DNA of 64,000 nucleotides from a bacterium (GTDB lineage: Bacteria > Patescibacteriota > Microgenomatia > UBA1400 > UBA12108), in contig JBDRPO010000004.1 of the NCBI GenBank assembly GCA_043827085.1, positions 2,847 to 66,846 on the forward strand, given 5' to 3'. This document shows, one piece after another, positions 2,960-53,501 of the stretch (its first letter is position 1; each line of letters opens with the position of its first letter). The position numbers and the translations under genes are program-made. The notes under the pieces are model-generated. The model saw only the letters and a list, made by a program, of their open reading frames with translations, was not told the DNA's origin and searched no databases.

Positions 2960-2970
2960 CAGGTATTGGT

Positions 2971-3106
2971 TGGTCAGACTGCAACTCCCAAGTTAGTAAT
3001 CAACCTGTCGTCAGAAGGTCTGTCCTGCTCAGGAAACCCCGAGCTTGTCGAGGGGTGTTTAGTCGACTTCAATATACAAACAGGAGACTAGGACAGACCT
3101 TAAAGG
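2971..3106. repeat. MITE-like palindromic repeat, family A, full-length copy (~135 bp) between rpmH and rnpA
   Basis: Near-identical copy at 34613-34752 and an internally deleted copy at 17097-17160. Arms GGTCTGTCCTG and CAGGACAGACC form an inverted repeat. Confidence 0.8.
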
Positions 3107-3118
3107 TATAATACGAAT

Positions 3119-3439: not shown

Positions 3440-3650
3440 AATCTACCGTCGCCTCTCCACTTTTCTAAAGTCGTTCACCCGCAATCTCGGTCTCTCAACG
3501 GGCCATTGTCGGTACGTTCCCACCTGTTCTCTTTATGCTAAACAAGCTTTTACCAAACATGGTTTGTGGAGGGGCGCTTGGTTATCTACCCAAAGACTGT
3601 TAAAATGTCACCCATGGTCTAAAGGTGGTTACGATGCACATCAGGAGTAA
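3432..3650 (+). CDS. yidD: Membrane protein insertion efficiency factor YidD
   Basis: 72-aa protein with the conserved CRYxPTCS..A and HPWSKGGYD motifs. It overlaps the rnpA stop. Confidence 0.85.
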   Translation: MYKIYRRLSTFLKSFTRNLGLSTGHCRYVPTCSLYAKQAFTKHGLWRGAWLSTQRLLKCHPWSKGGYDAHQE

Positions 3651-3700
3651 TAACTCCTGAGAAATGCCTCCAGATACGAAGTAATCTGAGAGGCCCCCGA
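3650..3700. repeat. Short hairpin repeat, family D (CTGAGAAATGYCTCCAGAYACGAAGTARTCTGRGAGGCC)
   Basis: Second copy at 6715-6765, which sits in frame inside the flippase-like gene. Confidence 0.7.
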
Positions 3701-3713
3701 CAACTAAACAATT

Positions 3714-4451: not shown

Positions 4452-4452
4452 T

Positions 4453-4905
4453 ATGTTAGCCACCGATATTAAAAAGATTGAAGAGCTTCTTCAGCTTTTT
4501 GACATTACGCCCGACCAAATCAAGATTGACGAAACTGATGAAGCAGTCACCATCACCGTTGATCAAAGCGAACTCGAAGCCGGCCGCCTAATTGGTCGCT
4601 TTGCCTCTACCCTCGACTCTCTTCAGTTGATTATCTCGCTTATGCTCAATAAAGGCGATGTTCACCGCCACATTCTTTTAGATGTTGCCGGCTACCGCGC
4701 TCGTCGCTTGACCACCCTCGAGACTATGGTTGAAAACGCCAAACAACAAGTGAGAAATATTGGTGGTGCCTGCGCCCTCCCGCCCCTTTCCGCAACCGAA
4801 CGCCGCCAAGTTCATTTTATGCTTCAAGATGATGCAGAATTCACTAGTTACTCCGAAGGCTACGGGCAAGATAGGCGCCTATTTATCGCTCCCAAAACTA
4901 TCTAG
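4453..4905 (+). CDS. jag: Jag/KhpB-like RNA-binding protein (KH + R3H domains)
   Basis: Jag N-terminal domain, KH and a C-terminal R3H-like region, following yidC. The start is set to MLATD at 4453, because the ORF-track start at 4414 overlaps yidC. Confidence 0.75.
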   Translation: MLATDIKKIEELLQLFDITPDQIKIDETDEAVTITVDQSELEAGRLIGRFASTLDSLQLIISLMLNKGDVHRHILLDVAGYRARRLTTLETMVENAKQQVRNIGGACALPPLSATERRQVHFMLQDDAEFTSYSEGYGQDRRLFIAPKTI

Positions 4906-6148
4906 TCTCCTAGTCGGTCTGATTATTTTTTTCTCTGCTACCCAATTTGGTTTGCATTTCTGGCCGCTCTCAACTCTTGTTTATGGCATCCGTATTGACT
5001 ATCTCTCCCCCGCCACCTACTTCCTCGACATCCTAATCATTTTTTATTTATCTCTCTCTTCACGCCTACCATCCACACTCTCTCGCTTGCATTCTATTTT
5101 CCCCATTCTCCTTGTCAATCTCATCTTTTCTCAAAACCCCGCCAGCACCCTCTCCTGGTCTCTCCACCTTGTTCTATATTTGTTGTTTATCTCATCTCTA
5201 CCCCTCAGCAGAATACGCAATACTCTATACAAAATATTGCCCATAGCAATCCTCTTCCAAGTCACGCTCGCGCTCACCCAAGTCACCATTGGTCATTCTG
5301 TTGGTGGGCTCATGTACTACCTTGGTGAACGAACCGTGGCTGTGGGTGCGCCTACGATCGCCCTTGCCATGTTTATGGATCATGTTGTACTACGTGCCTA
5401 TGGTACTTTCGGACACCCCAACGTGCTTGCTGGATGGTTAGTAATCGCTTTATTGATTACCATCCAACTTTGGAGACAACGCCAATCGTCAGTGGGGCTG
5501 ACCTTAAAGGACTCGAGCGCGATTAGTGTCCGAAAAGATCCTAGAAGGTCAGACCCAATGGGTACTAAAACCATTTGGGTACCCCTCATCCTCACCACCC
5601 TCGGCATTTTTCTCACTCAGTCTCGCGCCGCCGCCCTCACCCTCTTTGTTTTCATCATTCCTTTCTATCTACTTAAATCCCTCAAATCTCGAGTGATTTA
5701 TTTTGTACTTATTCTAGCTTCTAGCTTCTATCTTCTATCTTCTGGCACACTATTACGTGCGTTCGATCTCTCCTCTTCCGAGCGCCTTACTTTGCAGGGA
5801 GTCTCCCTTAAAGCAATTCAAGCATTTCCGCTTTTCGGCACCGGGGCGCAGGCTAGCATTTCTACCTACCCTACCGTCTCTCCCAATACTCGCCTCCTCC
5901 AACCCGACCACAATTCTCTTACCCTCTTCCTCTCCTGGTTCGGTATTTTTGGTCTCCTAGCCATTTTATACTCTCTGAGATTTCAATTTAAGAATTTGAG
6001 AATTTATGATTTTCGATTTGTCCTCCCACTCCTCCCACTTCTTCTCCTCGACCACTATCTCTTCACTTCCCCCCAAGGTTTATTTGTATTACTTCTATAC
6101 CCTGCCGTTGCGGTAAACTACTCTCATGCTCAAAAAAATCGCGAGTAA
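4760..6148 (+). CDS. O-antigen ligase (Wzy_C)-like polytopic membrane protein; true start uncertain, probably ~4830-4950
   Basis: 10-12 TM helices and an FLTQSRAAALTLFVF segment typical of O-antigen ligase domains. The N-terminal part of the track ORF overlaps jag and is probably not translated. A 75-bp palindromic repeat is inserted in frame at 5500-5578. Confidence 0.45.
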   Translation: MVVPAPSRPFPQPNAAKFILCFKMMQNSLVTPKATGKIGAYLSLPKLSSLLVGLIIFFSATQFGLHFWPLSTLVYGIRIDYLSPATYFLDILIIFYLSLSSRLPSTLSRLHSIFPILLVNLIFSQNPASTLSWSLHLVLYLLFISSLPLSRIRNTLYKILPIAILFQVTLALTQVTIGHSVGGLMYYLGERTVAVGAPTIALAMFMDHVVLRAYGTFGHPNVLAGWLVIALLITIQLWRQRQSSVGLTLKDSSAISVRKDPRRSDPMGTKTIWVPLILTTLGIFLTQSRAAALTLFVFIIPFYLLKSLKSRVIYFVLILASSFYLLSSGTLLRAFDLSSSERLTLQGVSLKAIQAFPLFGTGAQASISTYPTVSPNTRLLQPDHNSLTLFLSWFGIFGLLAILYSLRFQFKNLRIYDFRFVLPLLPLLLLDHYLFTSPQGLFVLLLYPAVAVNYSHAQKNRE

Positions 6149-7343
6149 TACCCTGGCACAACTTGTCGCCAAATTTTTTGGTGCTGGACTCACCCTCTTC
6201 ACCACCTACTATACGATCCGTCTTACCGGTCTCGAACTTTATGGTGATTTAACTAAAATTCTCGTCCTCGTCGCCATAGGTTTTACCGCCATCGATTTTG
6301 GTTTGAACGCCGAAGCAATTCGCTTTGGTACGAGTGAAAGCAAAATGCGTCAAGTTCTAGGTCAAGTTATCCTCGTTCGCCTAGTTCTTTCCGCACTCGT
6401 CATCCTTGCCCTCAATCTCCTTATTTTCTTTTTACCCGGCGGCTATTCGAGTGAAGTTAAATCCATTTTCTGGCTTGGTAGCCTGGCAATCATTTTTCAA
6501 GGCATCTATACCTCAGGCAATGCTTGGTTTCAATCCAATTTGTCATACTGGCGTCCTACCATCTCGGTCGTTGTCGGGTCACTGACCGGCACGGGTCTCA
6601 CCCTCTATTTTCTTGCGACCTCCCCCACCCTCTCTCATCTGGTTCTTGCCAACACTATTGGATACTCCGTCATGGCCCTCTGCTCTGTTTTCATGCTCTG
6701 CACATCAGGCGCGTTAGCGCCTGAGAAATGTCTCCAGACACGAAGTAGTCTGGGAGGCCTTCTCCGTCGCTCCCTAATTCTCGGGCTGATCTTAATTGCG
6801 AGCGTCTTTGCCTCAAAACTGGATACTATCATCCTCGGCATCTTCCGCCTCTCTAGCGAGGTTGGAGAATATGGTTTTGCCTACCGCATTTTTGACGTCA
6901 TTCTCGTCCTCCCAGTATTTGTCATGAATGCCGTCTATCCTCTCTTAATCAAAGATAGTGGAAACTCTTCAAAACTAATCAGTCATACCACAAAAAACAT
7001 GGCCTTCATTGGCGTCGCTACCGCCATTTTTCTCTGGTTTGCCGCCCCCTACGTCAATCTTGTCAAACCCGGCCTCACACTCACAGTAAGCGTCCTTCGT
7101 CTCCTCTCCCTCTCCCTTCCCCTCTTCTATGTGACCGCACCCCTTATGTGGTCTTTGATTGGGGCTCGTCGCGACAAAATAGTACTCAGCGTGTATGTTG
7201 TTGCTGCCCTGGGCAACGGTCTTTTAAACCTACTTTTTATACCCTCTTTTGGCGCCCCCGCCGCCGCCGCGATGACTGGTATTACCGAGTTATTTATTTT
7301 TTGCGCTCTGTTATACTTCTCTCGCAATGATTTGAGAACTTAA
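6126..7343 (+). CDS. Polysaccharide biosynthesis protein / Wzx-like flippase (MOP superfamily)
   Basis: 12-14 TM helices. The N-terminal ASNTLAQLVAKFFGAG..YG motif is typical of Wzx/MurJ-like flippases. A family D hairpin repeat is in frame at 6715-6765. Confidence 0.55.
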   Translation: MLKKIASNTLAQLVAKFFGAGLTLFTTYYTIRLTGLELYGDLTKILVLVAIGFTAIDFGLNAEAIRFGTSESKMRQVLGQVILVRLVLSALVILALNLLIFFLPGGYSSEVKSIFWLGSLAIIFQGIYTSGNAWFQSNLSYWRPTISVVVGSLTGTGLTLYFLATSPTLSHLVLANTIGYSVMALCSVFMLCTSGALAPEKCLQTRSSLGGLLRRSLILGLILIASVFASKLDTIILGIFRLSSEVGEYGFAYRIFDVILVLPVFVMNAVYPLLIKDSGNSSKLISHTTKNMAFIGVATAIFLWFAAPYVNLVKPGLTLTVSVLRLLSLSLPLFYVTAPLMWSLIGARRDKIVLSVYVVAALGNGLLNLLFIPSFGAPAAAAMTGITELFIFCALLYFSRNDLRT

Positions 7344-7348
7344 GACTT

Positions 7349-7795
7349 ATGATTACAAAACTATTATTGAATACAGACGGTGGTTCGCGCGGCAATCCCG
7401 GCCCTGCCGCCTACGGCTACGTTATCCGCGACATCTCTGGCCTGCCCGCCGAAGCCTCGGCGAAGGAGGGTACGGGAATCATTCTGGAAAAATGCGGTAA
7501 TTATATAGGCACTGCCACCAACAACACTGCGGAATACGAAGGCCTAATTGCGGGGATCAAATGGGTGCTCACCCACCACCCGCGCGCCATGCTCACAATT
7601 AAAATGGACTCACTCCTTATTGTCAATCAAATCAAGGGCCTATTTAAAGTGAAAAATCCCGGTCTCATTCCAAAATATCAAGAAGTGAGGGGACTATTAT
7701 CTCAACTCCCCAAGTGGTCTATCGAACACACCTACCGTGAAGGCAACTCCCTAGCAGATGAACTAGTCAATCTAACGCTTGATGCACGTACTTAA
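7349..7795 (+). CDS. rnhA: Ribonuclease HI-like (type 1 RNase H fold)
   Basis: DGGSRGNPGPAAYGYV...TNNTAEYEGL...D..L...REGNSLAD pattern (DEDD carboxylates). A family C repeat (GCCGAAGCCTCGGCGAAGGAGG) sits in frame at 7446-7470. Confidence 0.7.
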   Translation: MITKLLLNTDGGSRGNPGPAAYGYVIRDISGLPAEASAKEGTGIILEKCGNYIGTATNNTAEYEGLIAGIKWVLTHHPRAMLTIKMDSLLIVNQIKGLFKVKNPGLIPKYQEVRGLLSQLPKWSIEHTYREGNSLADELVNLTLDART

Positions 7796-8054
7796 CTTTT
7801 CTTATAAGCTATAGGTCTTCAATAGTCTAGTCAAAATTTTGTATTCACTAGTGGTCTTTTCAGACTAATGAAAAACGTGGAAAAAGTGTAACAACGAAAA
7901 AGGGTAGAAAAGTATACATACAAACCAAGACACGAAACAAAAATAAATCGTAGTAACAAAGAAGTTAGTAGGGGAGTAATTTGTATAGGTCTGAATATAT
8001 ATAAGGTATTTAAACATTCCGAGTTATCCGAGTTTTCTGATAAACTGAAATCGT

Positions 8055-10908: not shown

Positions 10909-11640
10909 ATGACTATTTTTGAACTCGCCGCTTCTACTCGCACGCTCTTTGGCCGGAAAACCAAACAGCTCAGGAAAAAGGGAATCGTCCCAGCGAACAT
11001 CTTTGGCAAAAAAATCAAATCCCTCGGCATAGAGATCGAAAAAGGGATTCTTCTAGACACCATGCGTAAAGCCGGCGAGACAGGCTTGATCCATCTCAAG
11101 ATCAAGGGTGACGATAAAACCCACCCCGTCCTCGTTTCTGGCTACGCTCAAGATCCAGTAACCGGCGACATGCTCCACGTCGATTTCCACGAAGTTGATC
11201 TTAAACAAAAAACCAAAGCCATGGTTCCTGTCAAAACCGTGGGCGTTTCTCCCGCAGTCGACACAGGCAACATCTTGGTTATGTTCAAAAATGAAATTGA
11301 AGTTGAAGCCCTTCCCACCGACCTCCCCGATGTCATTGAAGTTGATATTTCGGGGCTTGCCGAAGTTGGAGCCCATATTTTAGCGAAAGATCTCAAAGTT
11401 GACCGCTCCAAAGTTACGCTCGATATCGAGGGAGATGCACAAATAGTTGCCATCCAAGAGCCAACCAAAGAAGAAGTTGTTGTCCCCGCTGCTCCAGCCG
11501 AGGGCGAGGAAGCCGCTCCAACCGAGGGTGAGGAAAGCAAACCAGCCGAGGGCGAAACTAAACCGGAGGCTAAAGAAACCAAGAAAGAAGACTTGTCCGC
11601 CGAAGCCAAGGCTAAGGCGGGACCTAAGGCTGAAAAATAG
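10909..11640 (+). CDS. rplY: 50S ribosomal protein L25 / general stress protein Ctc
   Basis: N-terminal L25 beta-barrel (LFGRKTKQLRKKGIVPANIFG) plus a low-complexity E/K/A-rich C-terminal tail. GGAGG ribosome-binding site 8 bp upstream. Confidence 0.85.
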   Translation: MTIFELAASTRTLFGRKTKQLRKKGIVPANIFGKKIKSLGIEIEKGILLDTMRKAGETGLIHLKIKGDDKTHPVLVSGYAQDPVTGDMLHVDFHEVDLKQKTKAMVPVKTVGVSPAVDTGNILVMFKNEIEVEALPTDLPDVIEVDISGLAEVGAHILAKDLKVDRSKVTLDIEGDAQIVAIQEPTKEEVVVPAAPAEGEEAAPTEGEESKPAEGETKPEAKETKKEDLSAEAKAKAGPKAEK

Positions 11641-18952: not shown

Positions 18953-20461
18953 ATGCCAAAATTTCCTGATCCTACCAAAGACTACGGTGGCACACCCATG
19001 ACTGGCTCTATCGACTTATCTGCCGAAGCATCGGCGAAGGAGGCGGACATCCCCCCCACCCCGCTCTATCAAGCTCCAGAACCGACCGCCGCTCCCACTC
19101 CCGAACCGGCCCCCACACCTGGCAACCAAAGCGCCGGAACACCAGAAAATCAAACTCCCAAATCGTCGATTTCCAGTTCTCCGTTCCGCAATATGATGCC
19201 GATCTTAATCGGAGGTGGTGCCCTCATCCTTTTACTAGTCCTAGGGTTTACCATCGTTCCCAAATTCTTTAAAAAAGCCGAACCCATCACTCTCAACTAT
19301 TGGGGCCTTTGGGAATCAAGCTCCGTTATGCAAACCGTCATTGCCGACTACGAGAGTCAGAATCCAACCGTCAAAATCAACTACACCATGCAGAATATCA
19401 AAAACTATCGCTCGCGCTTTCTCACCGCCGGCACCCAGGGGAGTTCACCCGATATTGTTCGCATTCACAATACCTGGCTTCCCATGCTCAAAAAAAATCT
19501 CGCCCCCGCTCCCGATACAGTACTCACAACCAGTGATCTAAGTAGCTACTACCCCATCGTCCAAAAAAACTTCGTCAGTGGCGGCAAAATCTACGCCCTC
19601 CCGCTTGAAATTGACGGGCTAGCTCTCCTTTATAACGAAGATATCTTTAATGAAGCGGGTGCGACTCCTCCCTCCGACTGGAACACGCTGAGGAAACTTG
19701 CCTTTGACTTGACCAAAATCAACGCCGAAACCAAAATTATCGAACGCGCAGGGGTAGCGCTCGGTACCACCAACAATGTCGAACACTGGTCCGACATCTT
19801 GGGTCTCCTGATCCTCCAAAACTCCGGCAATCCAGGGAAACCCACCGACACTGCCGTTCAAGACGCTCTCACTTTCTACACCATCGTTTCCACCCAAGAC
19901 AAATCATGGGACTCTAGCCAACCCAACTCTGTCTATGCCTTTGCGACCGGTACCGTTGCCATGATCTTGGCTCCGTCCTGGCAAGTCTCCGAAATCAAAG
20001 CTATTAATCCTGATCTCCACTTTAAAGTCGCTCCCGCTCCCGTTTTGCCTTCTGCTAACTATGCCTGGGCTTCATATTGGGGTGAGGCAGTGCCACTCAC
20101 TAGTAAAAATCCTGAAGCTGCCTGGAAATTTATCAAATACCTAAGTACCCCCGAAGTCCTCCAAAAAATGTACGCCGGCGCCAGCCAAATCCGCGCTCTT
20201 GGCGAGCCTTACCCACTCACGAGTCTCAGCAGTACTTTAGCTAGCGACCCACTAGCAGGAGCATATGTTACTCAGGGTCCAAACTATGTGTCCTGGTATC
20301 TTGCCGACCGCACCTACGACGATGGGGTCAATACCGAATTTAGTAAGTACTACGAAGACGCCGTAAACGCCATCAATGATGGTTCGACTGTCGGGAGCAT
20401 CCTCAAAACTCTCGACGAAGGCATAGCCCAAGTTTCCGCCAAGTACCCCGAGGCAAAATGA
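18953..20461 (+). CDS. Extracellular solute-binding protein (ABC transporter substrate-binding protein, family 1-like), orphan
   Basis: N-terminal TM/signal anchor followed by an SBP fold (LNYWGLWESS...DIVRIHNTWLPMLKKNL). A family C repeat is in frame near the N-terminus (SAEASAKEA). No adjacent permease or ATPase gene. Confidence 0.65.
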   Translation: MPKFPDPTKDYGGTPMTGSIDLSAEASAKEADIPPTPLYQAPEPTAAPTPEPAPTPGNQSAGTPENQTPKSSISSSPFRNMMPILIGGGALILLLVLGFTIVPKFFKKAEPITLNYWGLWESSSVMQTVIADYESQNPTVKINYTMQNIKNYRSRFLTAGTQGSSPDIVRIHNTWLPMLKKNLAPAPDTVLTTSDLSSYYPIVQKNFVSGGKIYALPLEIDGLALLYNEDIFNEAGATPPSDWNTLRKLAFDLTKINAETKIIERAGVALGTTNNVEHWSDILGLLILQNSGNPGKPTDTAVQDALTFYTIVSTQDKSWDSSQPNSVYAFATGTVAMILAPSWQVSEIKAINPDLHFKVAPAPVLPSANYAWASYWGEAVPLTSKNPEAAWKFIKYLSTPEVLQKMYAGASQIRALGEPYPLTSLSSTLASDPLAGAYVTQGPNYVSWYLADRTYDDGVNTEFSKYYEDAVNAINDGSTVGSILKTLDEGIAQVSAKYPEAK

Positions 20462-21411
20462 AGTCCGTATCCAAGGGGACCGTCCTTAAAAGGAATTCCC
20501 GGCTGCAAGCCGAGAAGGGCTCGTCGGCGGACGGAAGGACAGTCCCCAATGTAACCCTTTCGATTCTCCAAACACTAAAGTATAGCGATCACTTTGACTT
20601 TCCCCTGACCGCTAGTGAAATCTACACTCGCCTTATTGAGATTAAAGCCTCGCGTTCCCAAATCGAGGCTACTCTTTCCGAGCTTTGCCGCTCAAAGAAA
20701 ATTGGCAAAACCAAAAACTCCTACCATCTCCCCCATCGTGAAACTCTTGTTTCCCGCCGTCTCAAATGCGCCAAACTATCCAAGCCTCTGCTTGCCCGTG
20801 CACGAAAACTATCATCTAAAATCTCACATCTAAAATCTATTCTTGCCATCTACTTGACGGGCTCTCTCGCCGTAGGCAACACTGACAGAGACTCCGATAT
20901 AGATTTGATGATTATTACCAAACCAGGTCGTCTATGGACCACCCGCCTCCTCCTCACTCTCTATACCACTCTACTTAATCTTCGCCGCACTCCACATTCC
21001 CTCAATAATTCAGGCAAGCTCTGTCTCAACCTCTACTTAACTCCAAATGCCTATCTGCTCCCTCCTGATCGAAGGTCACTCTATACAGCCTACGAACTCA
21101 TCCAAGCCGTCCCGCTCCACGATCCTATGGATACTCACTCCGCTCTCCTGTCCGCCAACTCTTGGATTCACAATTACCTGCCCAATGCGATCACAGGGTC
21201 TGACCTTGAAGGAAGTGCCCAACCCCGCCCTTACAGCGAGCGGGGAAGGTCAGACCCTATCGGAAACTTACTTGAATCTCTCGTCTATCATCTGCAATTT
21301 CTCTACATGCGCCCCCGCATCACTCGCGAATATGTGACCAAAGACTCTGCCTTCTTCCACCCCCACAATCCAGGCGAAATTGTAATAAATAAGCTTTCTA
21401 GGCTAATTTGA
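20458..21411 (+). CDS. Nucleotidyltransferase-domain protein (winged helix + Pol-beta-type NTase)
   Basis: GSLAVGNTDRDSDIDLMII is the G[SG]x9-13Dh[DE] NTase motif. The N-terminus carries an in-frame 84-bp family B repeat (20470-20553) and a second repeat at 21205-21250. Confidence 0.5.
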   Translation: MKSVSKGTVLKRNSRLQAEKGSSADGRTVPNVTLSILQTLKYSDHFDFPLTASEIYTRLIEIKASRSQIEATLSELCRSKKIGKTKNSYHLPHRETLVSRRLKCAKLSKPLLARARKLSSKISHLKSILAIYLTGSLAVGNTDRDSDIDLMIITKPGRLWTTRLLLTLYTTLLNLRRTPHSLNNSGKLCLNLYLTPNAYLLPPDRRSLYTAYELIQAVPLHDPMDTHSALLSANSWIHNYLPNAITGSDLEGSAQPRPYSERGRSDPIGNLLESLVYHLQFLYMRPRITREYVTKDSAFFHPHNPGEIVINKLSRLI

Positions 21412-21756: not shown

Positions 21757-22326
21757 ATGTTCTACACCATTTCTTCCATTGGTCCCGTCTGCCGTAAGCT
21801 GCATGCCGCAGGCTGTAAGCTGGTCCTCGCGACCGGCTTCTTTGACCTCCTCCACGCCGAGCACATTAAGTTTTTAGCGAAAGCCAAAGCCGCCGGCGAT
21901 ATCTTAATTGTCGCCGTCGAATCCGACGAACGAGCTCGGGTACTAAAAGGGGAGGGACGCCCCATCGAGCCCCAACCAGTTCGTTGTCAACATCTCCTTG
22001 ATCTCCGTAGCCCAGGGTCCGACCTGCTAAGGAGACGACCAATGGGAGTGTTTAGTCGAGCCCGCTCAGCGGGTGAGACCAGGTCGGACCCTCAAAGCAC
22101 ATTAGTTGATTATGTAATTTCTCTCCCCCCCGATTTCAACAACTTCGCCTCCTACGACTCCCTTATGTCTGCCGTTCGCCCACAAGTCTACGCCGTCTCG
22201 GCCCACACTTCTCACCAGAAAAGTAAAGATTTTCTCGTCGAAAAATATGGAGGTAAACTCCTTGTCGTCCATGACTTCAATCCTGCTATCTCCACCACCC
22301 AAATTATTCAAAACACTAGAATCTAA
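21757..22326 (+). CDS. Cytidylyltransferase-like nucleotidyltransferase (RfaE domain II / glycerol-3-phosphate cytidylyltransferase-like)
   Basis: N-terminal GFFDLLHAEHIKFL (HxGH nucleotidyltransferase motif). An ~85-bp palindromic insert (GGGTCCGACCTG...CAGGTCGGACCC) is in frame at 22013-22100. Confidence 0.55.
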   Translation: MFYTISSIGPVCRKLHAAGCKLVLATGFFDLLHAEHIKFLAKAKAAGDILIVAVESDERARVLKGEGRPIEPQPVRCQHLLDLRSPGSDLLRRRPMGVFSRARSAGETRSDPQSTLVDYVISLPPDFNNFASYDSLMSAVRPQVYAVSAHTSHQKSKDFLVEKYGGKLLVVHDFNPAISTTQIIQNTRI

Positions 22327-22349: not shown

Positions 22350-23156
22350 ATGTTTGAAACCTATATCTACGCTCCTTTCTTCAATATTCTCGTCGGTCTC
22401 TATGAGATCTTGGGTGGAATCTCTCCAGACCTGGCCGACATGGGTATTGCGGTCATTATTTTCTCGATAGTTGTTCGTATTATCATGTTCCCACTTACCA
22501 TCATGGGTGAACGCTCCGAAGAAGAAAAGCGGAAGATCACCACAAAAATTGAAGAACTAAAACGCACTTACTCTCACGAACCAGTAAAACTCCGCGCCGA
22601 GATCAAACTCGTCATGCGCGACAACTTTAAACGAGTTTTCGCGACCACTTTTGAGCTCTTTGTGGGTCTCGCCATCATTCTCATGCTTTATCGCATCTTC
22701 ACGACCGGCCTTGAGGGTGCCGACTTCTATCTCCTCTACGACTTTATCCCTCGTCCAGACCACATTAACTTGATGTTTCTCGGCAAATACGATCTTAGCC
22801 ACACCAACAACACCCTCAACCTCATCCAGTCCATCATGATCTGTGTGGTTGAGGTTTTGTCCGCTCTCCGCTCTCCCTTTCCCGTTTCCCGGAAAGAAAA
22901 AATCCTTCTTCAACTTGTTCTCCCCGTCGGCTCCTATATTATCTTTATGTTTCTCCCCGCCGGTAAAAAAATCTTTCTGATTACTTCCCTCGCCTGGTCT
23001 GCCGTCTACCAATCAATCAGACTCATCCAAGATTGGGGTAATAAACTCTTAACTCGCTTCACACCAACTATTCAGACTGCAATTCCCACACCAGTTAACA
23101 ACGCGCCGTCAGAGGGTCAGACCTTGACGGAAGCGCCCACCCCGACCTCAAAATAA
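22350..23156 (+). CDS. Second YidC/Oxa1-family membrane insertase paralogue
   Basis: APFFNILVGLYEILG...GIAVIIFSIVVRIIMFPLT is the hallmark YidC TM1-2 region. The C-terminal ~20 aa come from a palindromic repeat (23093-23156). Confidence 0.7.
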   Translation: MFETYIYAPFFNILVGLYEILGGISPDLADMGIAVIIFSIVVRIIMFPLTIMGERSEEEKRKITTKIEELKRTYSHEPVKLRAEIKLVMRDNFKRVFATTFELFVGLAIILMLYRIFTTGLEGADFYLLYDFIPRPDHINLMFLGKYDLSHTNNTLNLIQSIMICVVEVLSALRSPFPVSRKEKILLQLVLPVGSYIIFMFLPAGKKIFLITSLAWSAVYQSIRLIQDWGNKLLTRFTPTIQTAIPTPVNNAPSEGQTLTEAPTPTSK

Positions 23157-23237
23157 ATCAGGAGGGAGGGTCTGACCCTATGGGTACTAGAGACCATCGA
23201 GCTTGCAATCCATCATTCGTGTTAGAATATCTATGCT

Positions 23238-26012: not shown

Positions 26013-26090
26013 ACCTCGCTATTGTAGCAAAGTTATCTATTCTTAGTATTGACACTCAACTATGACTATGGTACTATGACCATAGTCATT

Positions 26091-26330
26091 ATGTTAAAAA
26101 CAACAATTTCTAAATCAGAATTCAAAGCCAAAGCCCTCGAATACATGCGCTTTGTCGAGCAAAACAATCAACCCATTATCGTTACTGACATGGGAACTCC
26201 CGTTATTCAGGTTCAAGTTTTTCAACCAAAATCCAAGAGTGATCCATACGATTATTACCGCGGCAGCGTTCTCAAGTATGTCGGACCCAACAAACCCCTC
26301 GATTTGGAGGATTGGGGAAGATTAAAGTGA
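26091..26330 (+). CDS. Phd/YefM-type antitoxin (partner of the downstream PIN toxin)
   Basis: ~79 aa starting MLKTTISKSEFKAKALEYMRFVEQNNQPIIVT. A 24-bp perfect palindrome (GACTATGGTACTATGACCATAGTC, 26061-26084) just upstream is a likely autoregulatory operator. Confidence 0.5.
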   Translation: MLKTTISKSEFKAKALEYMRFVEQNNQPIIVTDMGTPVIQVQVFQPKSKSDPYDYYRGSVLKYVGPNKPLDLEDWGRLK

Positions 26331-26722
26331 TTCTACTAGACACCAATGCTTTTATTTGGTGGCTGTCTGATCGTGATAAACTCTCAAGTCGCGCACTATC
26401 CTCTATAAATTCACATGCTGTCGACAACAAAATACTCATTTCATCTATGAGTATTTGGGAGATTTGTTTATTAGTCCAAAAAAAACGTATCGACATTCAC
26501 GATTCACTTGAAAACTGGGTAAGCGGTTTAAAGAAACTACCCGATCTGGAATTTATTCCCATTGACAACGATATTGCCTATCAGGCAACTAATTTACCAG
26601 GTATTTTCCATAAAGATCCTGCCGATCGTATTATCGTGGCAACAGCTCGTTTTCTTGGTGCTACCCTCATCACTAGCGATAAACTAATTTTCAGATACAA
26701 ACACGTCAAAACCATTTGGTAG
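26312..26722 (+). CDS. vapC: PIN-domain toxin (VapC family)
   Basis: ILLDTNAFIWW...D.....TAR.......TSD pattern of acidic PIN residues. Overlaps the antitoxin stop. Confidence 0.75.
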   Translation: MGKIKVILLDTNAFIWWLSDRDKLSSRALSSINSHAVDNKILISSMSIWEICLLVQKKRIDIHDSLENWVSGLKKLPDLEFIPIDNDIAYQATNLPGIFHKDPADRIIVATARFLGATLITSDKLIFRYKHVKTIW

Positions 26723-28755: not shown

Positions 28756-28764
28756 CTTACTAAA

Positions 28765-28845
28765 GGACTGTCCTTAAAAGGAATTCCCGACCGCAAGTCA
28801 AGAAGGGCTCGCCAGCAGGCGAAAGGACAGTCCTCATTGGATAAC
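28765..28845. repeat. Palindromic repeat family B (GGACTGTCCTTAAAAGGAATTCCCG...CGAAAGGACAGTCC) immediately after the groEL stop
   Basis: Near-identical copy at 20470-20553. Shorter derivatives at 35440-35478 and 44290-44330. Confidence 0.75.
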
Positions 28846-28919
28846 GGTCAGACCCCACAGGTTACGATTTCTAAGTTGTTCTACTTGCACTCCCATTCTA
28901 TTCATGTCATAAATAGATT

Positions 28920-32352: not shown

Positions 32353-32483
32353 TCTTGTCTGATATTTCCATCAAGCCTGAAGGTATGCTATCCTACTTTC
32401 TGGCATTATTCCACCCCGGTATTCCACCCCGGGTGTGTTAGCCTTGTAGTTTAGAGTTTTTTCATTATTGGTATACTCGAATC

Positions 32484-33161
32484 ATGCCAATCAGGAAAGC
32501 CCCACTCGTTACAGGAGAGTATTACCATATATATAATCGTGGCATCAATCGGCGCCGGACTTTCACTGCCGAGAATAATTATCGAGATTATAATCGCGCC
32601 ATTCAAACCCTTGTCTACTATCGCCCCACAACCAATAAATTGAGATACTCCCATTTCCTAGCTAGGCCCAAGGACGAACAAAAAGACATTCTAACCAAAC
32701 TAGCAGAATCACCCCATAGAGTTACAATCATTGCCTACTGTCTCATGCCAAATCATTTTCACCTTCTCTTAAAACAAGAGGAAGATGGGGGGATCTCCCA
32801 GTATTTAGCCGACTTTCAAAACAGTTACACCAAATACTTCGACTCCAAACATAAACGTTCAGGCGCTCTTTTTGACCGCCAGTTTAAAGCAGTACTCATG
32901 GAATCTGAAAATCAATTGCTCCACTTGACTCGCTATATTCATCTCAATCCCTATTCATCCAATCTAGTTACAAATGATCAAATCGCTTCTTATCCATATT
33001 CATCACTACCTGAGTACTTATCAGGCAACTATCATCTCGCCAATCCAGGGGTAGTGTTGGATATCAATCCTCGCCGCTACGAGTCATTCGTCCTAGACAA
33101 TGCTGACTACCAACAGCAATTAGAACGTCTCAAACACGTCAGTCTCGATCTAGAAGTATGA
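32484..33161 (+). CDS. IS200/IS605-like HuH Y1 tyrosine transposase (REP-associated tyrosine transposase / RAYT-like)
   Basis: N-terminal YHIYNRGINRR, HuH motif HFHLLL and a catalytic Tyr in RYIHLNP. 225 aa, larger than IS200 TnpA, as in RAYT-type proteins. Confidence 0.7.
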   Translation: MPIRKAPLVTGEYYHIYNRGINRRRTFTAENNYRDYNRAIQTLVYYRPTTNKLRYSHFLARPKDEQKDILTKLAESPHRVTIIAYCLMPNHFHLLLKQEEDGGISQYLADFQNSYTKYFDSKHKRSGALFDRQFKAVLMESENQLLHLTRYIHLNPYSSNLVTNDQIASYPYSSLPEYLSGNYHLANPGVVLDINPRRYESFVLDNADYQQQLERLKHVSLDLEV

Positions 33162-33200: not shown

Positions 33201-33491
33201 ATGTTTAGTATTATGAAACAAAAAATCGTCGTTAGCAATGTCAGGTTCCCTTATCAAGATTGGATTATGGTAAAATCCGGGGCAGCTAACATGGGAATGA
33301 GCATAAATGAATACTTTCAGTACTTAGCCAATACCGACACCATAAAACAAGTAACCGGCACTAAAAAAATCATTCCACATACCAATCGTGAGAAAGCCTT
33401 CTCCGAATTATTTAAATTCGCGAGCCGTAAAGTAAAAGGCAAACCCATGGGGGCAAATGAAGACGATAAAATAATTTATGGCATCAAATAA
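33201..33491 (+). CDS. Ribbon-helix-helix (CopG/Arc-like) antitoxin
   Basis: VRFPYQDWIMVKSGAANMGMSINEYF matches the RHH beta-strand/helix pattern. A 14-bp perfect palindrome CATACCATGGTATG (33192-33205) overlaps the start. Overlaps the downstream PIN gene. Confidence 0.5.
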   Translation: MFSIMKQKIVVSNVRFPYQDWIMVKSGAANMGMSINEYFQYLANTDTIKQVTGTKKIIPHTNREKAFSELFKFASRKVKGKPMGANEDDKIIYGIK

Positions 33492-33888
33492 TATATTTAT
33501 CGATACAAGTTGGTTCAAGGCATTAGCTGATCCACAAGATAACTTTCACGCAAAAGCCTTAACTCAACTACAAAACTTTTCCCAATCAACCAATTTTATA
33601 ACCACCAATTTTATTTTAGATGAAACCCACACCTTAATTCGAGTCAAAACTGATCTAGAGTCTGCTCTCAATTTTCGTACTCTTCTGACCAAATTAGGAA
33701 TTATTCTCAAAGTTGTTCGAGTACTGGCCCAAGACGAATTCAAAGCTTGGGATTGGTTCCCTAAGCAGTGGAAGCGCTTATCATTTACGGACTGTACCTC
33801 TTTTGCTGTCATGCAAAGACTCGATCTAAAAGATGTCGCTACTTTTGACGATCACTTCTCCCGTGCTGGCTTTAATATGTTATCCTAA
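33478..33888 (+). CDS. vapC: PIN-domain toxin (VapC family)
   Basis: IFIDTSWFKAL...LDETHTL...FTDCTSFAVM PIN acidic-residue pattern. Confidence 0.7.
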   Translation: MASNNIFIDTSWFKALADPQDNFHAKALTQLQNFSQSTNFITTNFILDETHTLIRVKTDLESALNFRTLLTKLGIILKVVRVLAQDEFKAWDWFPKQWKRLSFTDCTSFAVMQRLDLKDVATFDDHFSRAGFNMLS

Positions 33889-34612: not shown

Positions 34613-34752
34613 TGGTCGGACTGCCACTCCCAAATTAGTAATTAACCTACCGTCAGAAGGTCTGTTCTGCTCAGGAGATCCTGGCCGAAGGCCAAGACCT
34701 TTAGTCGACTTTAACATACAAGCGAGAGACCAGGACAGACCTTATTGGAATT
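34613..34752. repeat. MITE-like palindromic repeat family A, full-length copy after pyrH
   Basis: Aligns along its whole length with 2971-3106. Confidence 0.8.
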
Positions 34753-35299: not shown

Positions 35300-35493
35300 A
35301 TTTGGGGTTAATCTAGCCCCTGAAGTGCGTGATCCTAGCAAAGAATGTCGATTTGTCAATCAAATTTTGTTTTTTTCCCAGGCAGAAACCAAGTAATCCC
35401 AGAGGTAAATACATAAATATATCAAAGTATATCAAAATGTCTTAGAGGACCGTCCTTAAGACGAAAGGACAGTCCTCGTGGTACATTAGAGGT

Positions 35494-36567
35494 ATGCAAT
35501 CTTTCGCCATCAATGGTTTTGGCCGCATCGGCCGCCTAGCCACCCGGGTTTGGTGGCAATATCATCGTGAAGAACTCAAACTCTCAGCCATCAACACTTC
35601 AGGTTCTATGGATATCACCGGTTGGGCACATCTCCTCAAGTACGACACCACCTATGGCCTTTTCCCTGGAGAAATTGCTTTCGAGTCATACCAATCCGCC
35701 AAAGATGCCACCGACACAGATCCCCTCATCGGATACCTAATATTTGATACACAATACAAGGTACCTGTCTTCGCCCAGCGAGATCCTGCTAAAATCCCCT
35801 GGGGAAAGTATGAAATCGAGGTCGTTATCGAATCAACTGGCGCCTTCACGAGTGGTGAGAAAGCCAAGGCCCACCTCACAGGTGGTGCAAAACAAGTTGT
35901 CATCTCAGCCCCAGCCAAGGGGGGTAATGTCCCGACTAGCGTTATTGGTGTCAACGAAGAAAAAATCGTCAGCGCCGACCACCAGAACACAATCGCTGTT
36001 CTCAATAACGCCAGTTGTACTACCAACTGTGTCGCCCCCGTCGCCCTCGTCATACAAGAGCGCCTAGGGATCGCCAAAGCCGCCATGACCACCATCCATA
36101 GTTATACTGACGATCAAAACCTCCAAGATGCCTCCCACAAGGACTTGCGCCGCGCTCGGGCAGCCGCCCAGAATATTGTCCCTACTACGACTGGGGCTGC
36201 CATTGCGACTACCGAAACGATACCCGAACTCAAAGGTTTATTTGATGGGATTGCCCTCCGCGTCCCCACAATTACCGGCTCTCTCACTGACTTTAGCTTT
36301 GTCGTGAAGAGAAAAACCACGGTCGATGAGGTAAATAACTTCTTCCGCCAGGCCACGCTCATGGATAACCTATCCGGCATTCTCGCGGTCACCGACGAGC
36401 CAATCGTCTCCTCCGACATCATTGGCCACCGCGAATCCGCCATTGTTGACCTCGCCCTCACTCAAGTCATTGACGGTGATCTAGTTAAAGTTTTTGCCTG
36501 GTATGACAACGAATGGGGCTATTCAAACCGTCTTGTTGAAACTGTGATCGACATCGCCAACGCCTAA
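35494..36567 (+). CDS. gap: Glyceraldehyde-3-phosphate dehydrogenase (type I)
   Basis: INGFGRIGR N-terminus and the active-site ASCTTNC motif. Confidence 0.95.
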   Translation: MQSFAINGFGRIGRLATRVWWQYHREELKLSAINTSGSMDITGWAHLLKYDTTYGLFPGEIAFESYQSAKDATDTDPLIGYLIFDTQYKVPVFAQRDPAKIPWGKYEIEVVIESTGAFTSGEKAKAHLTGGAKQVVISAPAKGGNVPTSVIGVNEEKIVSADHQNTIAVLNNASCTTNCVAPVALVIQERLGIAKAAMTTIHSYTDDQNLQDASHKDLRRARAAAQNIVPTTTGAAIATTETIPELKGLFDGIALRVPTITGSLTDFSFVVKRKTTVDEVNNFFRQATLMDNLSGILAVTDEPIVSSDIIGHRESAIVDLALTQVIDGDLVKVFAWYDNEWGYSNRLVETVIDIANA

Positions 36568-37325
36568 ATAAGCCCAAGAGCTTTTTTCACCCTCGGCCCC
36601 ATTAAGTGATCTTTATACTCCAGATATTTCTGATATTTATACTTAAGATATGGTGCCTTATCCAAATCATGATACATGTAGTCCAAGATATTTACAGCCT
36701 CTACACTATGGCTAATTAAATTGAAATCCCCGCACGATTTATACATTCGCGGTGATTTGATATTCAATAAACTACTAATTTCATCAGCAAGTTCATTTAA
36801 AAAAGCAATGCTACCACTGGAATATATTACACTTAAACGATTTGTCATTCTTCCCTTAGCCAAATATAAATTAATACACCCATCGCCGTCGAAATAACCC
36901 CTCAGAAAATATGAAAAATACTCGATAGGAATAGTAGGTAAATGCATAGTATTTGATTTACGGTGAGTCATTCCCAAATTAATCAAATCTTGATACATAA
37001 CCTTGTTCCCCATTTTTAGTACATAGCCCTCGCGTGAGGTATATTTTCCATGCCTGTGCTGCATCAGTCGGGGTGGCCTAACATAAATTGCATGTTCAGA
37101 GTTTAGACAAAGCTTAATTTTACTTAGTAATTCAAAATCATTATTACTGAATAACAGATAATACGTTCGACTAGATTTATTAGTATCGAGCAAAGATCCA
37201 TCAGCAAACATAAATCCAAGGACATATGCCATGTTCGGAGTCCACGTTTTGAAAAAAACTTCATTTACTTTTTTACGATTATGCCCACCTCTAGGATCTC
37301 GTACCATACTTCTAGTATTACCCAA
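36564..37325 (-). CDS. LAGLIDADG-family homing endonuclease (double-motif, free-standing)
   Basis: Two LAGLIDADG motifs (LGFMFADGSL and LRGYFDGDGCI), 253 aa. Markedly AT-rich relative to its neighbours. Its stop overlaps the gap stop. Confidence 0.85.
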   Translation of the reverse strand: MGNTRSMVRDPRGGHNRKKVNEVFFKTWTPNMAYVLGFMFADGSLLDTNKSSRTYYLLFSNNDFELLSKIKLCLNSEHAIYVRPPRLMQHRHGKYTSREGYVLKMGNKVMYQDLINLGMTHRKSNTMHLPTIPIEYFSYFLRGYFDGDGCINLYLAKGRMTNRLSVIYSSGSIAFLNELADEISSLLNIKSPRMYKSCGDFNLISHSVEAVNILDYMYHDLDKAPYLKYKYQKYLEYKDHLMGPRVKKALGLI

Positions 37326-37353: not shown

Positions 37354-37426
37354 AGGCCCGAGGGAGATTCGAACTCCCGCATAAGAGTTTTGCAGACTCT
37401 CGACTTGACCTCTTGTCTATCGGGCC
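37354..37426 (-). tRNA. tRNA-Cys (anticodon GCA)
   Basis: Manually folded: acceptor GGCCCGA/TCGGGCC, D arm with GG, anticodon stem AGAGT/ACTCT with loop CTGCAAA, T arm GGGAG-TTCGAAT-CTCCC, discriminator U73. 73 nt, no encoded CCA. Confidence 0.9.
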
Positions 37427-53187: not shown

Positions 53188-53460
53188 TTGTCATTTATTA
53201 TCGGACTAAACAATATGTGTCATACCGCAGATCAAATTACTTGGGTAGCAAAACAACTAGGTTTCAAGGACTTTCAATGTCAGAGGGAAAATGAATGTAA
53301 TGAAGAAAGTTGTCTCCTATGCGCCGATTTGGGTTTTACCCATGAAGAAATCATTACAATTACCAATTATCTTCAAGGACAACGGCAGATAGTCAGATTT
53401 GACGATATCGCAGTTCAAGCCAACTCGGTTGATTACACCCCGGGTGTGTCAGCCTTTTAG
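53188..53460 (+). CDS. Hypothetical Cys-rich small protein
   Basis: 90-aa ORF; no recognised motif. Confidence 0.25.
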   Translation: MSFIIGLNNMCHTADQITWVAKQLGFKDFQCQRENECNEESCLLCADLGFTHEEIITITNYLQGQRQIVRFDDIAVQANSVDYTPGVSAF

Positions 53461-53501
53461 TTTAGTCAAGGTCTGACCTTGCAGGGTGATAAACTACAAA
53501 T

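What the first reader, a model, noticed from the sequence alone, without database searches (positions are those of the whole stretch)
20470..20553. Family B repeat and its mosaic relatives
GGACTGTCCTTAAAAGGAATTCCCG(R)C(Y)GCAAG(Y)C(R)AGAAGGGCTCG...GRAAGGACAGTCC occurs at 20470-20553 and at 28765-28845 right after groEL. Shortened hairpins with the same termini occur at 35440-35478 upstream of gap and 44290-44330 downstream of tatD. The termini of families A, B, E and H share half-sites (GGTCAGACC, CTGCAAGG, AGGACAGTCC). This suggests a recombining pool of hairpin modules and not independent families.
Basis: seen in the sequence. Interest (0 to 1): 0.55.

Follow-up and report, generated by a model that had tools for sequence, protein, structure and literature searches.

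The report
In-frame palindromic repeat elements in Microgenomates
The "family B" repeat is a real ~70-base folded DNA element, probably mobile, found in a group of ultra-small (CPR) bacteria; it always lies on the same DNA strand and often sits inside genes, where its sequence stays in the reading frame and is probably translated as an extra protein loop.

Summary
Two full family-B copies (20475-20547, 28763-28835) and one internally deleted copy (35445-35477) are real. The fourth site (44302) is ordinary tatD coding sequence.

B folds as a three-way junction, with double compensatory changes at 14 of 27 base pairs. It recurs at about 77-93% identity in other Microgenomates genomes; in one of these the groEL DNA is only 66% identical to the window's.

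- **Strand:** of 84 unique copies, 83 lie on the C-rich strand.
- **In genes:** about 35 copies sit inside genes. All are sense-oriented and in frame. All ORF-spanned copies but one have lengths that are multiples of three.
- **Effect on proteins:** B-encoded peptides align as insertions in QueA and DinB. B1 encodes residues 5-31 of the window's nucleotidyltransferase, a segment the structure model leaves unresolved.
- **Mobility:** a syntenic relative lacks B2 but carries B elsewhere.

Every terminus, paired or solo, is one polar unit: a palindromic core GGWC-N-GWCC followed by a GG-containing (often GGAA) tail. Hybrid cores occur in only one of the two possible arrangements (20 against 0).

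Best reading: an RPE/REPIN-like non-autonomous mobile element that moves by a strand-specific mechanism. A single-copy Y1 (RAYT-like) transposase at 32484-33161 is a candidate mobiliser but is unproven, because its own flanking hairpins belong to a different family.

The parts
20475..20554 (+). Family B copy B1. P1 20475-20487 / 20535-20547, with a C.A mismatch at the central pair. P2 20496-20503 / 20509-20516. P3 20521-20525 / 20530-20534. 3' flank CCAATGTAA 20546-20554, with the conserved G at +6 but no GG. In frame as codons 5-31 of ORF 20458-21411.
   Evidence: (97.5 bits)
28763..28842 (+). Family B copy B2, intergenic, 10 nt after the groEL stop codon. Cores 28765-28773 and 28825-28833. 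Polar tail TCATTGGAT.
   Evidence: 94 bits. Absent from the syntenic relative L197, which has an 18-nt spacer
28846..28854 (+). Solo core GGTCAGACC with a tail (CCACAGG), just after B2.
35445..35477 (+). Internally deleted B: P1 plus the 3' strand of P3, missing about 40 nt. Lies upstream of gap.
   Evidence: -18.7 kcal/mol, z -4.5; 31.9 bits. Absent in L197
44302..44310 (.). Not an element. A single GGACTGTCC inside the tatD coding sequence on the minus strand.
20458..21411 (+). Host gene, a nucleotidyltransferase (NCBI MFH2085241.1). It carries B1 (aa 5-31) and a second element, 21192-21261 (aa 246-268).
   Evidence: The only segments with pLDDT below 50 are residues 1-29 and 248-267
21192..21261 (+). 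Related element with GGTCTGACC / GGTCAGACC cores, in frame (peptide GSDLEGSAQPRPYSERGRSDPIG).
22011..22095 (+). Related element, in frame in a cytidylyltransferase-like ORF. Contains the GTGTTTAGTCGA module.
23069..23182 (+). D1 module followed by a related element, at the 3' end of the YidC-like ORF 22350-23156.
5490..5560 (+). Related element, in frame in the Wzy_C-like ORF 4760-6148.
2971..3108 (+). Composite of a D1 module and element 3012-3104 (hybrid cores GGTCTGTCC / GGACAGACC), in the dnaA-rnpA spacer.
34613..34750 (+). Composite of a D1 module and element 34654-34746. Its P2 resembles B's. Its tail TTATTGGAA overlaps the stop codon of the M23 peptidase gene.
   Evidence: Absent in L197
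17098..17166 (+). D1 module with a single core GGTCAGACC and tail TTATTGGAA (a solo site), lying between two minus-strand genes.
32484..33161 (+). Single-copy Y1 HUH (IS200/RAYT-like) transposase gene. HUH motif NHFHLL and catalytic Tyr in RYIHLNP. Candidate mobiliser, link unproven.
32400..32454 (+). D14 hairpin (CACCCCGGGTGTG followed by TTAGCCTTGTAGTTTAG) upstream of the Y1 gene. This is the hairpin family that flanks that gene.
53432..53478 (+). Second D14 hairpin, directly followed by a solo core GGTCTGACC (53470-53478).

Best explanation
**What it is.** Family B is one family in a superfamily of small (about 65-95 nt) non-autonomous palindromic DNA elements of Microgenomates (CPR) bacteria. 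The closest analogues are Rickettsia palindromic elements and REP/REPINs.

**Anatomy.** Each element is bounded by two same-direction copies of a polar unit of about 19 nt: RR-GGWC-N-GWCC-YY-N3/4-GG, the tail often reading GGAA. The 9-nt core of this unit is itself a palindrome. Because the cores are palindromic, the two ends pair into a 13-bp stem (P1). B's interior adds two further hairpins (P2 and P3), giving a three-way junction.

**How it most likely works.**
- The elements are gained and lost at the DNA level by a strand-specific process, most likely involving single-stranded DNA. This step is inferred. It would explain why the same form lies on the C-rich strand of these chromosomes, which carry a one-directional GC skew.
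- Copies survive in spacers between genes.
- Copies also survive inside genes on the C-rich strand. B is 3n nucleotides long and has two stop-free sense frames, so it can be read through as a hydrophilic loop of about 23-25 residues. The in-frame state is shown; translation itself is inferred.
- The single-copy Y1 HUH transposase at 32484-33161, which keeps its position between related genomes, is the best candidate enzyme. This link is inferred and weak.
For: **Structure**
- 14 of 27 pairs show changes on both sides, 94.9% of cells are paired, and 0 of 500 shuffles reach the observed values (alignment).

**Conservation across genomes**
- B matches other MAGs at 81-93% identity, while groEL DNA is 66% identical to the one of those genomes (MAG070) whose groEL region is held.
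- Mean identity within a genome (86.8%) is about the same as between genomes (85.5%).

**Strand polarity**
- 83 of 84 unique copies lie on the C-rich strand.
- The skew does not depend on gene direction. ORFs on the opposite strand still show -0.22 on the element's strand.
- All 9 window elements are in the + orientation.
- Related Microgenomates (order UBA1400) have a chromosome-wide, one-directional GC skew (PMC7143001).
- Genes flanking intergenic copies lie on the opposite strand in 20% of cases, close to the 26% baseline. The chromosome strand, not transcription direction, therefore sets orientation.

**Copies inside genes**
- About 35 copies are spanned by an ORF. All are sense-oriented, in two different frames.
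- ORF-spanned copies are 66, 69, 72 or 75 nt long, with one 71-nt exception. Eight of the nine 71- and 131-nt variants are not ORF-spanned.
- The B-encoded peptide aligns as an insertion against solved QueA and DinB structures.
- In the window's protein, the only low-confidence segments of the structure model are the two element-encoded stretches.

**Gain and loss**
- Orthologs either carry or lack B at the same site.
- The syntenic relative L197 lacks B2, element 34654 and the 35447 hairpin, but has B at L197:738-816 inside another gene.

**Polar unit**
- 16 of 22 cores carry the GG tail on the + strand, against 2 of 22 on the minus strand.
- G at position +6 is 98% conserved.

**Candidate enzyme**
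- Pfam Y1_Tnp, E = 6.8e-10. NCBIfam REP-associated tyrosine transposase, 56.5 bits. HUH and Tyr motifs are intact.
- The gene looks single-copy and keeps its position in L197.
- Y1 enzymes act on hairpinned single-stranded DNA and are tied to one replication strand (PMC6006769).
Against: - No filled-versus-empty allele pair defines exact ends, and no target-site duplication was found.
- Between near-identical relatives, the element-bearing segment is replaced by unrelated sequence rather than simply inserted.
- The Y1 gene is flanked by a different, low-copy hairpin (D14), not by B. No Y1 homolog lies near B in about 1.4 Mb of other loci.
- B has terminal inverted repeats, which IS200/IS605 derivatives lack.
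- Within-genome identity equals between-genome identity. That is not the signature of recent bursts. It fits purifying selection on each copy, which is the functional-element rival.
- Which strand is the lagging-strand template in these genomes is unknown.
- Translation of the inserts is inferred, not observed.
Confidence: 0.6

Rival explanations
1. Cassette exchange by site-specific recombination. The polar unit with its palindromic core is a recombination site, with crossover next to the central N. B's interior, together with the inner half-sites (..GTCC [interior] GGAC..), moves as a cassette into resident sites. This leaves hybrid cores and direct repeats of the site. Recombination between the two cores deletes the cassette and leaves a solo site.
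For: - Hybrid cores occur only as left GGTCnGTCC with right GGACnGACC (20 against 0 for the reciprocal). Inner halves are GTCC/GGAC in about 49 of 56 copies, while outer halves split about evenly. The central pair is T on the left and A on the right in 45 of 56 copies.
- In the window, 16 of the 22 cores carry the same-direction tail, whether left, right or solo.
- Solo sites with central A occur at 17144 and 28846.
- One orthologous protein site holds different families in different species.
- Near-identical relatives differ by wholesale replacement of the segment.
- An empty ortholog keeps CCTATTGGAA, the tail motif.
Against: - No recombinase is linked to the sites.
- Six B copies have GGTCnGACC at both ends.
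- Element 23110 has the central nucleotides reversed.
- Stem covariation combined with shared ancestry of copies could give the same counts, because the copies are not independent.
- No circular or junction products have been seen.
Confidence: 0.15
2. A functional structured RNA or single-stranded DNA element, kept by selection at each locus. Candidate roles are mRNA 3' stabiliser, processing site or protein-binding site. On this view the repeats are host-beneficial, not selfish.
For: - Strong covariation, plus invariant junction strands AAAAGGAA and GGGCT and a never-paired C.A (or G.A) position in P2.
- DNA-level conservation greater than that of groEL.
- Within-genome identity equals between-genome identity.
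- All copies inside genes are sense-oriented, and most intergenic copies lie downstream of co-oriented genes.
Against: - Host genes are unrelated to one another: QueA, DinB, TsaD, PBP1A, SecD/F and a nucleotidyltransferase.
- Copies are present or absent between close relatives.
- Intergenic copies follow the chromosome strand even next to opposite-strand genes, for example L061.
- No Rfam family matches. The best hit is RAGATH-21 at 15.7 bits against a 70.3-bit cutoff.
- No U-tract follows B2, and the terminator scan found no terminator-like site on the + strand there.
- P2 forms an uninterrupted helix, with a G.T wobble, only on the antisense G-rich strand.
Confidence: 0.12
3. A selected peptide module: a protein motif shared by many proteins, with the DNA similarity as a by-product.
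For: The peptide RTVLKRNSRLQAEKGSSADERTVL recurs in many proteins.
Against: - The same DNA is equally conserved in intergenic copies and in a second reading frame (GLSLKGIPGCKPRRARRQTKGQSL).
- Substitutions follow base pairing, not codon position.
- The encoded segments are modelled as low-confidence loops.
Confidence: 0.02

Closest known systems
Rickettsia palindromic elements (RPE-1 to RPE-8; Ogata et al. 2000/2002, as reviewed in PMC2229807 and PMC3733652)
   Same: - Dispersed palindromic repeats in a reduced genome.
- Found both between genes and fused in frame inside conserved protein genes.
- The insert adds a short extra segment to an otherwise conserved protein; here that segment is modelled as a low-confidence loop.
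- No obvious dedicated transposase, and no clear target-site duplication.
   Different: - Different phylum, and no sequence relationship was shown (none was tested).
- B is shorter: 69-75 nt against 105-146 bp.
- B is a three-way junction with conserved junction strands.
- B is bounded by a polar unit with a palindromic core.
- B has near-absolute strand polarity (83 of 84).
- B is conserved across different MAGs more strongly than groEL DNA.
REP/REPIN-RAYT systems (PMC3116915, PMC3333891, PMC5581495, PMC6006769)
   Same: - Short hairpin-forming repeats that persist in a lineage.
- A Y1 HUH transposase gene that is single-copy and keeps its genomic position.
- A conserved short motif on one side of the hairpin.
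- Intragenic copies are known for some REP families (PMC3733652).
   Different: - No GTAG tag. CGTC occurs only in the D1-associated subset.
- About 40% of copies lie inside genes.
- The Y1 gene is flanked by a different hairpin (D14), not by B.
- The NCBIfam score (56.5 bits) is below the equivalog cutoff (80).
IS200/IS605 transposition and its miniature derivatives (PATEs) (PMC5027513, PMC6006769)
   Same: - Strand-specific orientation relative to chromosome asymmetry.
- No target-site duplication.
- A conserved sequence on only one flank.
- A Y1 enzyme is present in the genome.
   Different: - B has a 13-bp terminal inverted repeat.
- B's internal hairpins do not resemble the hairpins flanking the Y1 gene.
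- No full-length parent element with B's ends was found.
Integron cassettes and attC sites
   Same: - Structured, single-strand-foldable sites with conserved ends and a variable centre.
- Cassette-like replacement at fixed sites.
- The proposed crossover lies inside a short conserved core.
   Different: - No arrays, no IntI gene, and no R''/R' (RYYYAAC/GTTRRRY) boxes.
- The elements carry no ORF of their own and sit inside host genes.

Membership tests
Rickettsia palindromic elements (RPE) | Dispersed multi-copy palindromic repeat that folds into a long hairpin | tested here: met
   over 80 unique copies and a structure supported by covariation
Rickettsia palindromic elements (RPE) | In-frame insertion in conserved protein genes that adds a loop | tested here: met
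   Translation is inferred, not measured
Rickettsia palindromic elements (RPE) | Sequence homology to RPE-1 to RPE-8, and a Rickettsia host | not tested
   The host is a Microgenomates MAG. No RPE sequences were available for comparison
REP/REPIN-RAYT | A 20-40-nt imperfect palindrome with a GTAG or CGTC tetranucleotide at the foot | tested here: not met
   the left flank is conserved only at -1 and -2, and there is no GTAG. CGTCAG is present only in the D1-linked subset. The right flank has G at +6 in 98% of copies
REP/REPIN-RAYT | A single-copy, vertically inherited RAYT gene in the genome | tested here: met
   The gene keeps its position in L197. The NCBIfam score is below the cutoff (56.5 against 80)
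REP/REPIN-RAYT | The RAYT gene is flanked by its cognate REPs | tested here: not met
   the flanks carry the D14 hairpin, not B or any GGWCNGWCC element
REP/REPIN-RAYT | Predominantly extragenic location | tested here: not met
   about 35 of 84 copies lie inside ORFs
IS200/IS605-derived miniature elements | Orientation tied to one replication strand | tested here: met
   Which strand is the lagging-strand template is unknown
IS200/IS605-derived miniature elements | Subterminal hairpins like those of the parent IS, and no terminal inverted repeats | tested here: not met
   B has a 13-bp terminal inverted repeat, and P2 and P3 are unlike D14
IS200/IS605-derived miniature elements | Insertion 3' of a fixed tetra- or pentanucleotide, without duplication | tested here: inconclusive
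   there is a one-sided conserved flank, and an empty ortholog keeps CCTATTGGAA. Exact junctions are not resolved
Classical DDE-derived MITE | Terminal inverted repeats shared with a parent IS, plus a target-site duplication | tested here: not met
   The only DDE IS in the window (51880-52980) has unrelated, perfect 49-bp inverted repeats. No duplication was found
Described structured RNA families (Rfam 15) | A match at or above the family's gathering score | tested here: not met

The most novel reading that the evidence does not exclude
The elements bounded by GGWC-N-GWCC cores may not be decaying selfish DNA. They may be cassettes of a strand-specific, single-strand-based site-specific system. 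On this reading, each copy is held under purifying selection even inside coding sequence. The system's uniform polarity would then be functionally tied to the unusual one-directional strand asymmetry, and possibly unidirectional replication, of UBA1400-type Microgenomates chromosomes.
Probability: 0.15. Interest if true: 0.85.

Novelty: new variant of a known kind. Interest (0 to 1): 0.62.

Why it matters
- **Mobile DNA in tiny genomes.** CPR genomes are about 1 Mb, and one related closed genome was reported to lack mobile elements (PMC7143001). This 64-kb window holds at least 9 such elements. Several add probably translated loops to housekeeping-type proteins. Annotation and protein modelling of CPR genes should take them into account.
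- **A marker of strand asymmetry.** The near-absolute strand polarity gives a sequence marker for the unexplained chromosome-wide strand asymmetry of these lineages. It also offers a route to testing how they replicate.
- **A candidate new enzyme-substrate pair.** If the Y1 enzyme or another recombinase acts on the polar palindromic unit, this would be a new substrate architecture for single-strand DNA transposition or recombination.

Tried and rejected
- **Rfam.** The gathering-threshold scan of the window and permissive scans of B2, L035 and L079 gave only tRNA hits and noise.
- **Hammerhead-like core.** Checked by eye. The junctions do not fit CUGANGA/GAAA.
- **G.U asymmetry.** I first suspected that mismatches were always G.U on the minus strand, which would imply an antisense RNA. 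With 33 distinct copies the variable mismatches are 2 G.T against 2 C.A. Only the invariant P2 C.A remains.
- **Target-site duplication and left-right flank pairing.** None found.
- **Full-length parent element.** A search for one bounded by the same cores found only neighbouring small elements.
- **DDE IS as the parent.** Its inverted repeats are unrelated.
- **Y1 homologs near B in other loci.** None found.
- **Phage carriage.** 0 matches in IMG/VR.
- **Exact look-up of the window's GroEL.** Not on record.
- **Literature searches.** Searches for the core motifs and for RPE-like elements or MITEs in CPR returned nothing relevant.
- **Hits in other phyla.** The genome scan also hit Myxococcota, Deltaproteobacteria and Clostridia. 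These share the core GGGACNGTCC(C)TTAA, but it sits inside longer perfect hairpins of a different architecture. I do not count them as family B.
- **Peptide-module explanation.** Rejected, because intergenic copies and a second reading frame are equally conserved.

Full report
**1. Observation**

The two long copies are real. B1 has cores at 20477-20485 and 20537-20545. B2 has cores at 28765-28773 and 28825-28833. They are 84% identical over 75 nt. The hairpin at 35447-35475 keeps the first 13 nt and last 16 nt of B, and a covariance model aligns it as B with a 40-nt internal deletion.

The fourth site fails. 44302-44310 is a single GGACTGTCC inside the tatD coding sequence on the minus strand (peptide RGQSLQA). 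It shows no indel against the ortholog and is not downstream of tatD. The terminal motif is far from chance: GGWCNGWCC occurs 22 times against 2.45 expected, with a maximum of 6 in shuffles.

**2. Structure**

Fifteen copies from the window and from five other MAGs align without difficulty. They support a three-way junction:
- P1 has 13 bp: the core, two flanking R/Y pairs, and TT/AA.
- P2 has 8-9 bp and the loop TGCAA.
- P3 has 5 bp and a loop that is usually GGCA.

Fourteen of 27 pairs change on both sides, 94.9% of cells pair, and no shuffle or slid control comes close. The junction strands AAAAGGAA and GGGCT are nearly invariant. One P2 position never pairs on the + strand (C.A or G.A), and in the C.A copies it is a G.T wobble on the other strand. 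Both strands fold, as RNA or as DNA, and the G-rich strand folds slightly better. No Rfam family matches.

**3. Distribution**

The window comes from an NCBI MAG labelled "bacterium" (contig 69,684 bp; proteins MFH2085241 and MFH2085254). Its proteins group with Woesebacteria, Collierbacteria and other Microgenomates.

A genome scan and a metagenome scan, followed by the covariance model, gave 120 B hits, of which 84 are unique by their flanks. B matches other MAGs at 81-93% identity, while groEL DNA is 66% identical to one of them, MAG070. Mean identity within a genome (86.8%) equals that between genomes (85.5%). A sister family (B') in MAG070 scores 50-59 bits with the B model.

**4. Inside genes, in frame**

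B1 is codons 5-31 of ORF 20458-21411, and no later start codon exists. In other genomes B lies inside DinB, QueA, TsaD, PBP1A and a SecD/F-type protein. Against solved QueA and DinB structures, the B peptide is an insertion.
- About 35 of 84 unique copies are spanned by an ORF. All are sense-oriented, 29 in one frame and 5-6 in a second.
- With 26% of coding DNA on the other strand in these loci, finding no antisense copy among 35 has p of about 3e-5.
- ORF-spanned copies are 66, 69, 72 or 75 nt long, with one 71-nt exception. Eight of the nine 71- and 131-nt variants are not ORF-spanned.
- The 72-nt variant adds one P2 base pair and one loop base, three nucleotides in all.
- In an AlphaFold model of the window protein (pLDDT 79, pTM 0.75), the only segments below pLDDT 50 are residues 1-29 and 248-267. 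These are the two element-encoded stretches.

Because intergenic copies and both reading frames are equally conserved, selection acts on the nucleic acid and not on the peptide.

**5. Polarity**

In 83 of 84 unique copies the + form lies on the C-rich strand. All nine window elements are in the + orientation, although about 42% of the window's genes are on the minus strand.

The skew does not depend on gene direction, and it does not switch at dnaA/dnaN, which lie at the start of the window. This matches the chromosome-wide, one-directional skew reported for UBA1400 Microgenomates (PMC7143001). Genes flanking intergenic copies lie on the opposite strand in 20% of cases against a 26% baseline. 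The chromosome strand therefore sets orientation, and the absence of antisense copies inside genes looks like a second filter.

**6. Gain and loss**

In orthologs of the nucleotidyltransferase, the N-terminal site holds B in 5 of 20 sequences, other element-like peptides in about 5, and nothing in about 10. The second site is likewise occupied by different families or is empty. DNA alignments show empty orthologous sites, and one of them keeps CCTATTGGAA.

The syntenic relative L197 lacks B2 (its spacer is 18 nt), element 34654 and the 35447 hairpin. It does have B inside another gene. Between near-identical relatives, the element-bearing segment is replaced by unrelated sequence of similar length, so exact ends remain undefined.

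**7. A polar unit at every end**

The right flank reads Y Y A W N G(98%) G A A. The left flank is conserved only at positions -1 and -2, which pair with +1 and +2. The sequence after the left core (TTAAAAGGAA, or TTGAAGGAA in other families) is the same kind of tail. In the window, 16 of 22 cores carry the GG tail on the + strand, against 2 of 22 on the minus strand. Elements are therefore bracketed by direct repeats of one polar unit with a palindromic core. Solo units exist at 17144, 28846 and 53470.

Among 56 B copies the core combinations are:
- GGACnGTCC with GGACnGTCC: 29
- GGTCnGTCC with GGACnGACC: 20
- GGTCnGACC with GGTCnGACC: 6
- GAACnGTCC with GGACnGTCC (a degenerate left core): 1
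- the reciprocal hybrid: 0

The central pair is T on the left and A on the right in 45 copies. This is what crossover beside the central N between a resident site and a B-borne site would produce. The copies are not independent, however, and stem covariation remains an alternative.

**8. Modules**

The window elements share more than their ends.
- GTGTTTAGTCGA occurs in elements 3012, 34654 and 22011.
- Elements 21192 and 23110 share only their 5' halves.
- The P2 of 34654 resembles B's.
- The D1 module precedes three different elements and also occurs with a solo unit.
- Within B, terminus type and P2 variant show all four combinations.

**9. Candidate enzyme**

ORF 32484-33161 is a Y1 HUH transposase. 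Pfam Y1_Tnp gives E = 6.8e-10, and NCBIfam REP-associated tyrosine transposase gives 56.5 bits against a cutoff of 80. The HUH motif NHFHLL and the Tyr in RYIHLNP are present, and there is a weak match to ISDra2 TnpA. It has thousands of CPR homologs, looks single-copy, and keeps its position in L197.

Y1 enzymes process hairpinned single-stranded DNA at replication forks (PMC6006769), which fits the polarity. But the gene is flanked by a different, low-copy hairpin, D14, and no homolog lies near B elsewhere. The window's DDE IS (51880-52980) has unrelated, perfect 49-bp inverted repeats. No B was found in viral contigs.

**10. Comparison and verdict**

In behaviour, B is closest to Rickettsia palindromic elements and to intragenic REPs (PMC2229807, PMC3733652). 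Its possible mechanism resembles REPIN-RAYT or IS200/IS605 systems, but it fails defining features of each:
- no GTAG tag;
- not extragenic;
- the Y1 gene is not flanked by B;
- B has terminal inverted repeats.

I file it as a new variant of the in-frame palindromic repeat kind. Its distinctive features are a three-way junction, a polar unit with a palindromic core, near-absolute strand polarity, and conservation across genomes. The mechanism remains inferred.

Noticed in passing
window 32484-33161, with 32400-32454 and 53432-53465: A single-copy Y1 HUH (RAYT/IS200-like) transposase gene. It keeps its position in a relative (L197). It is flanked by its own low-copy hairpin, CACCCCGGNGGTG followed by TTAGCCTTGTAGTTTAG (D14). 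A further D14 copy at 53432 abuts a solo GGTCTGACC core.
   Followed up: partly
window 57-2729 and 1-8000: dnaN and dnaA lie on the minus strand at the start of the window, but the GC skew stays near -0.2 on both sides. There is no switch at the presumed origin, as reported for UBA1400 Microgenomates. A composite element (2971-3108) sits in the dnaA-rnpA spacer.
   Followed up: partly
window 51880-52980: A 1.1-kb IS701/IS4-like insertion sequence with perfect 49-bp terminal inverted repeats. Its transposase is split into two ORFs (51935-52582 and 52582-52917).
   Followed up: partly
window 7443-7470, 11594-11621, 19017-19044: A small palindromic repeat (GCCGAAGCCTCGGC-type) lies in frame in three unrelated proteins (RNase H-like, ribosomal L25, solute-binding protein). 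It encodes L(P/S)AEA(S/K)AK(E/A)(G/A).
   Followed up: partly
window 3635-3695 and 6699-6759: A 61-nt repeat, 84% identical between its two copies, contains two hairpins that differ by compensatory changes. One copy is intergenic and the other lies inside the Polysacc_synt ORF 6126-7343.
   Followed up: no
L001-L103 (Myxococcota, Deltaproteobacteria, Clostridia, Saccharibacteria and Parcubacteria MAGs): Multi-copy hairpin repeats in several unrelated phyla share the core GGGACNGTCC(C)TTAA. This is more than the roughly 8 chance hits expected. In the non-CPR phyla the core lies inside longer hairpins, many of them nearly perfect. Its meaning is unknown.
   Followed up: partly
L106:1450-1710 vs L193:9625-9895; L128:2170-2430 vs L107:1500-1765: Near-identical relatives differ by complete replacement of the element-bearing segment. 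In L193 the replacement is a CATCTAC-type tandem repeat. This points to hypervariable, cassette-like sites.
   Followed up: partly
window 36564-37325 and 37354-37426: A free-standing ORF of the LAGLIDADG endonuclease family lies directly next to a tRNA gene, both on the minus strand.
   Followed up: no
window 63902-63938: A perfect 13-bp hairpin, CACGCCCGGTGTG / CACACCGGGCGTG, resembles the stem of the D14 hairpin that flanks the Y1 gene.
   Followed up: no
window 26049-26722 and 33478-33888: A Phd-like antitoxin with a PIN toxin, plus a second PIN-domain gene, lie near the repeat-rich region.
   Followed up: no
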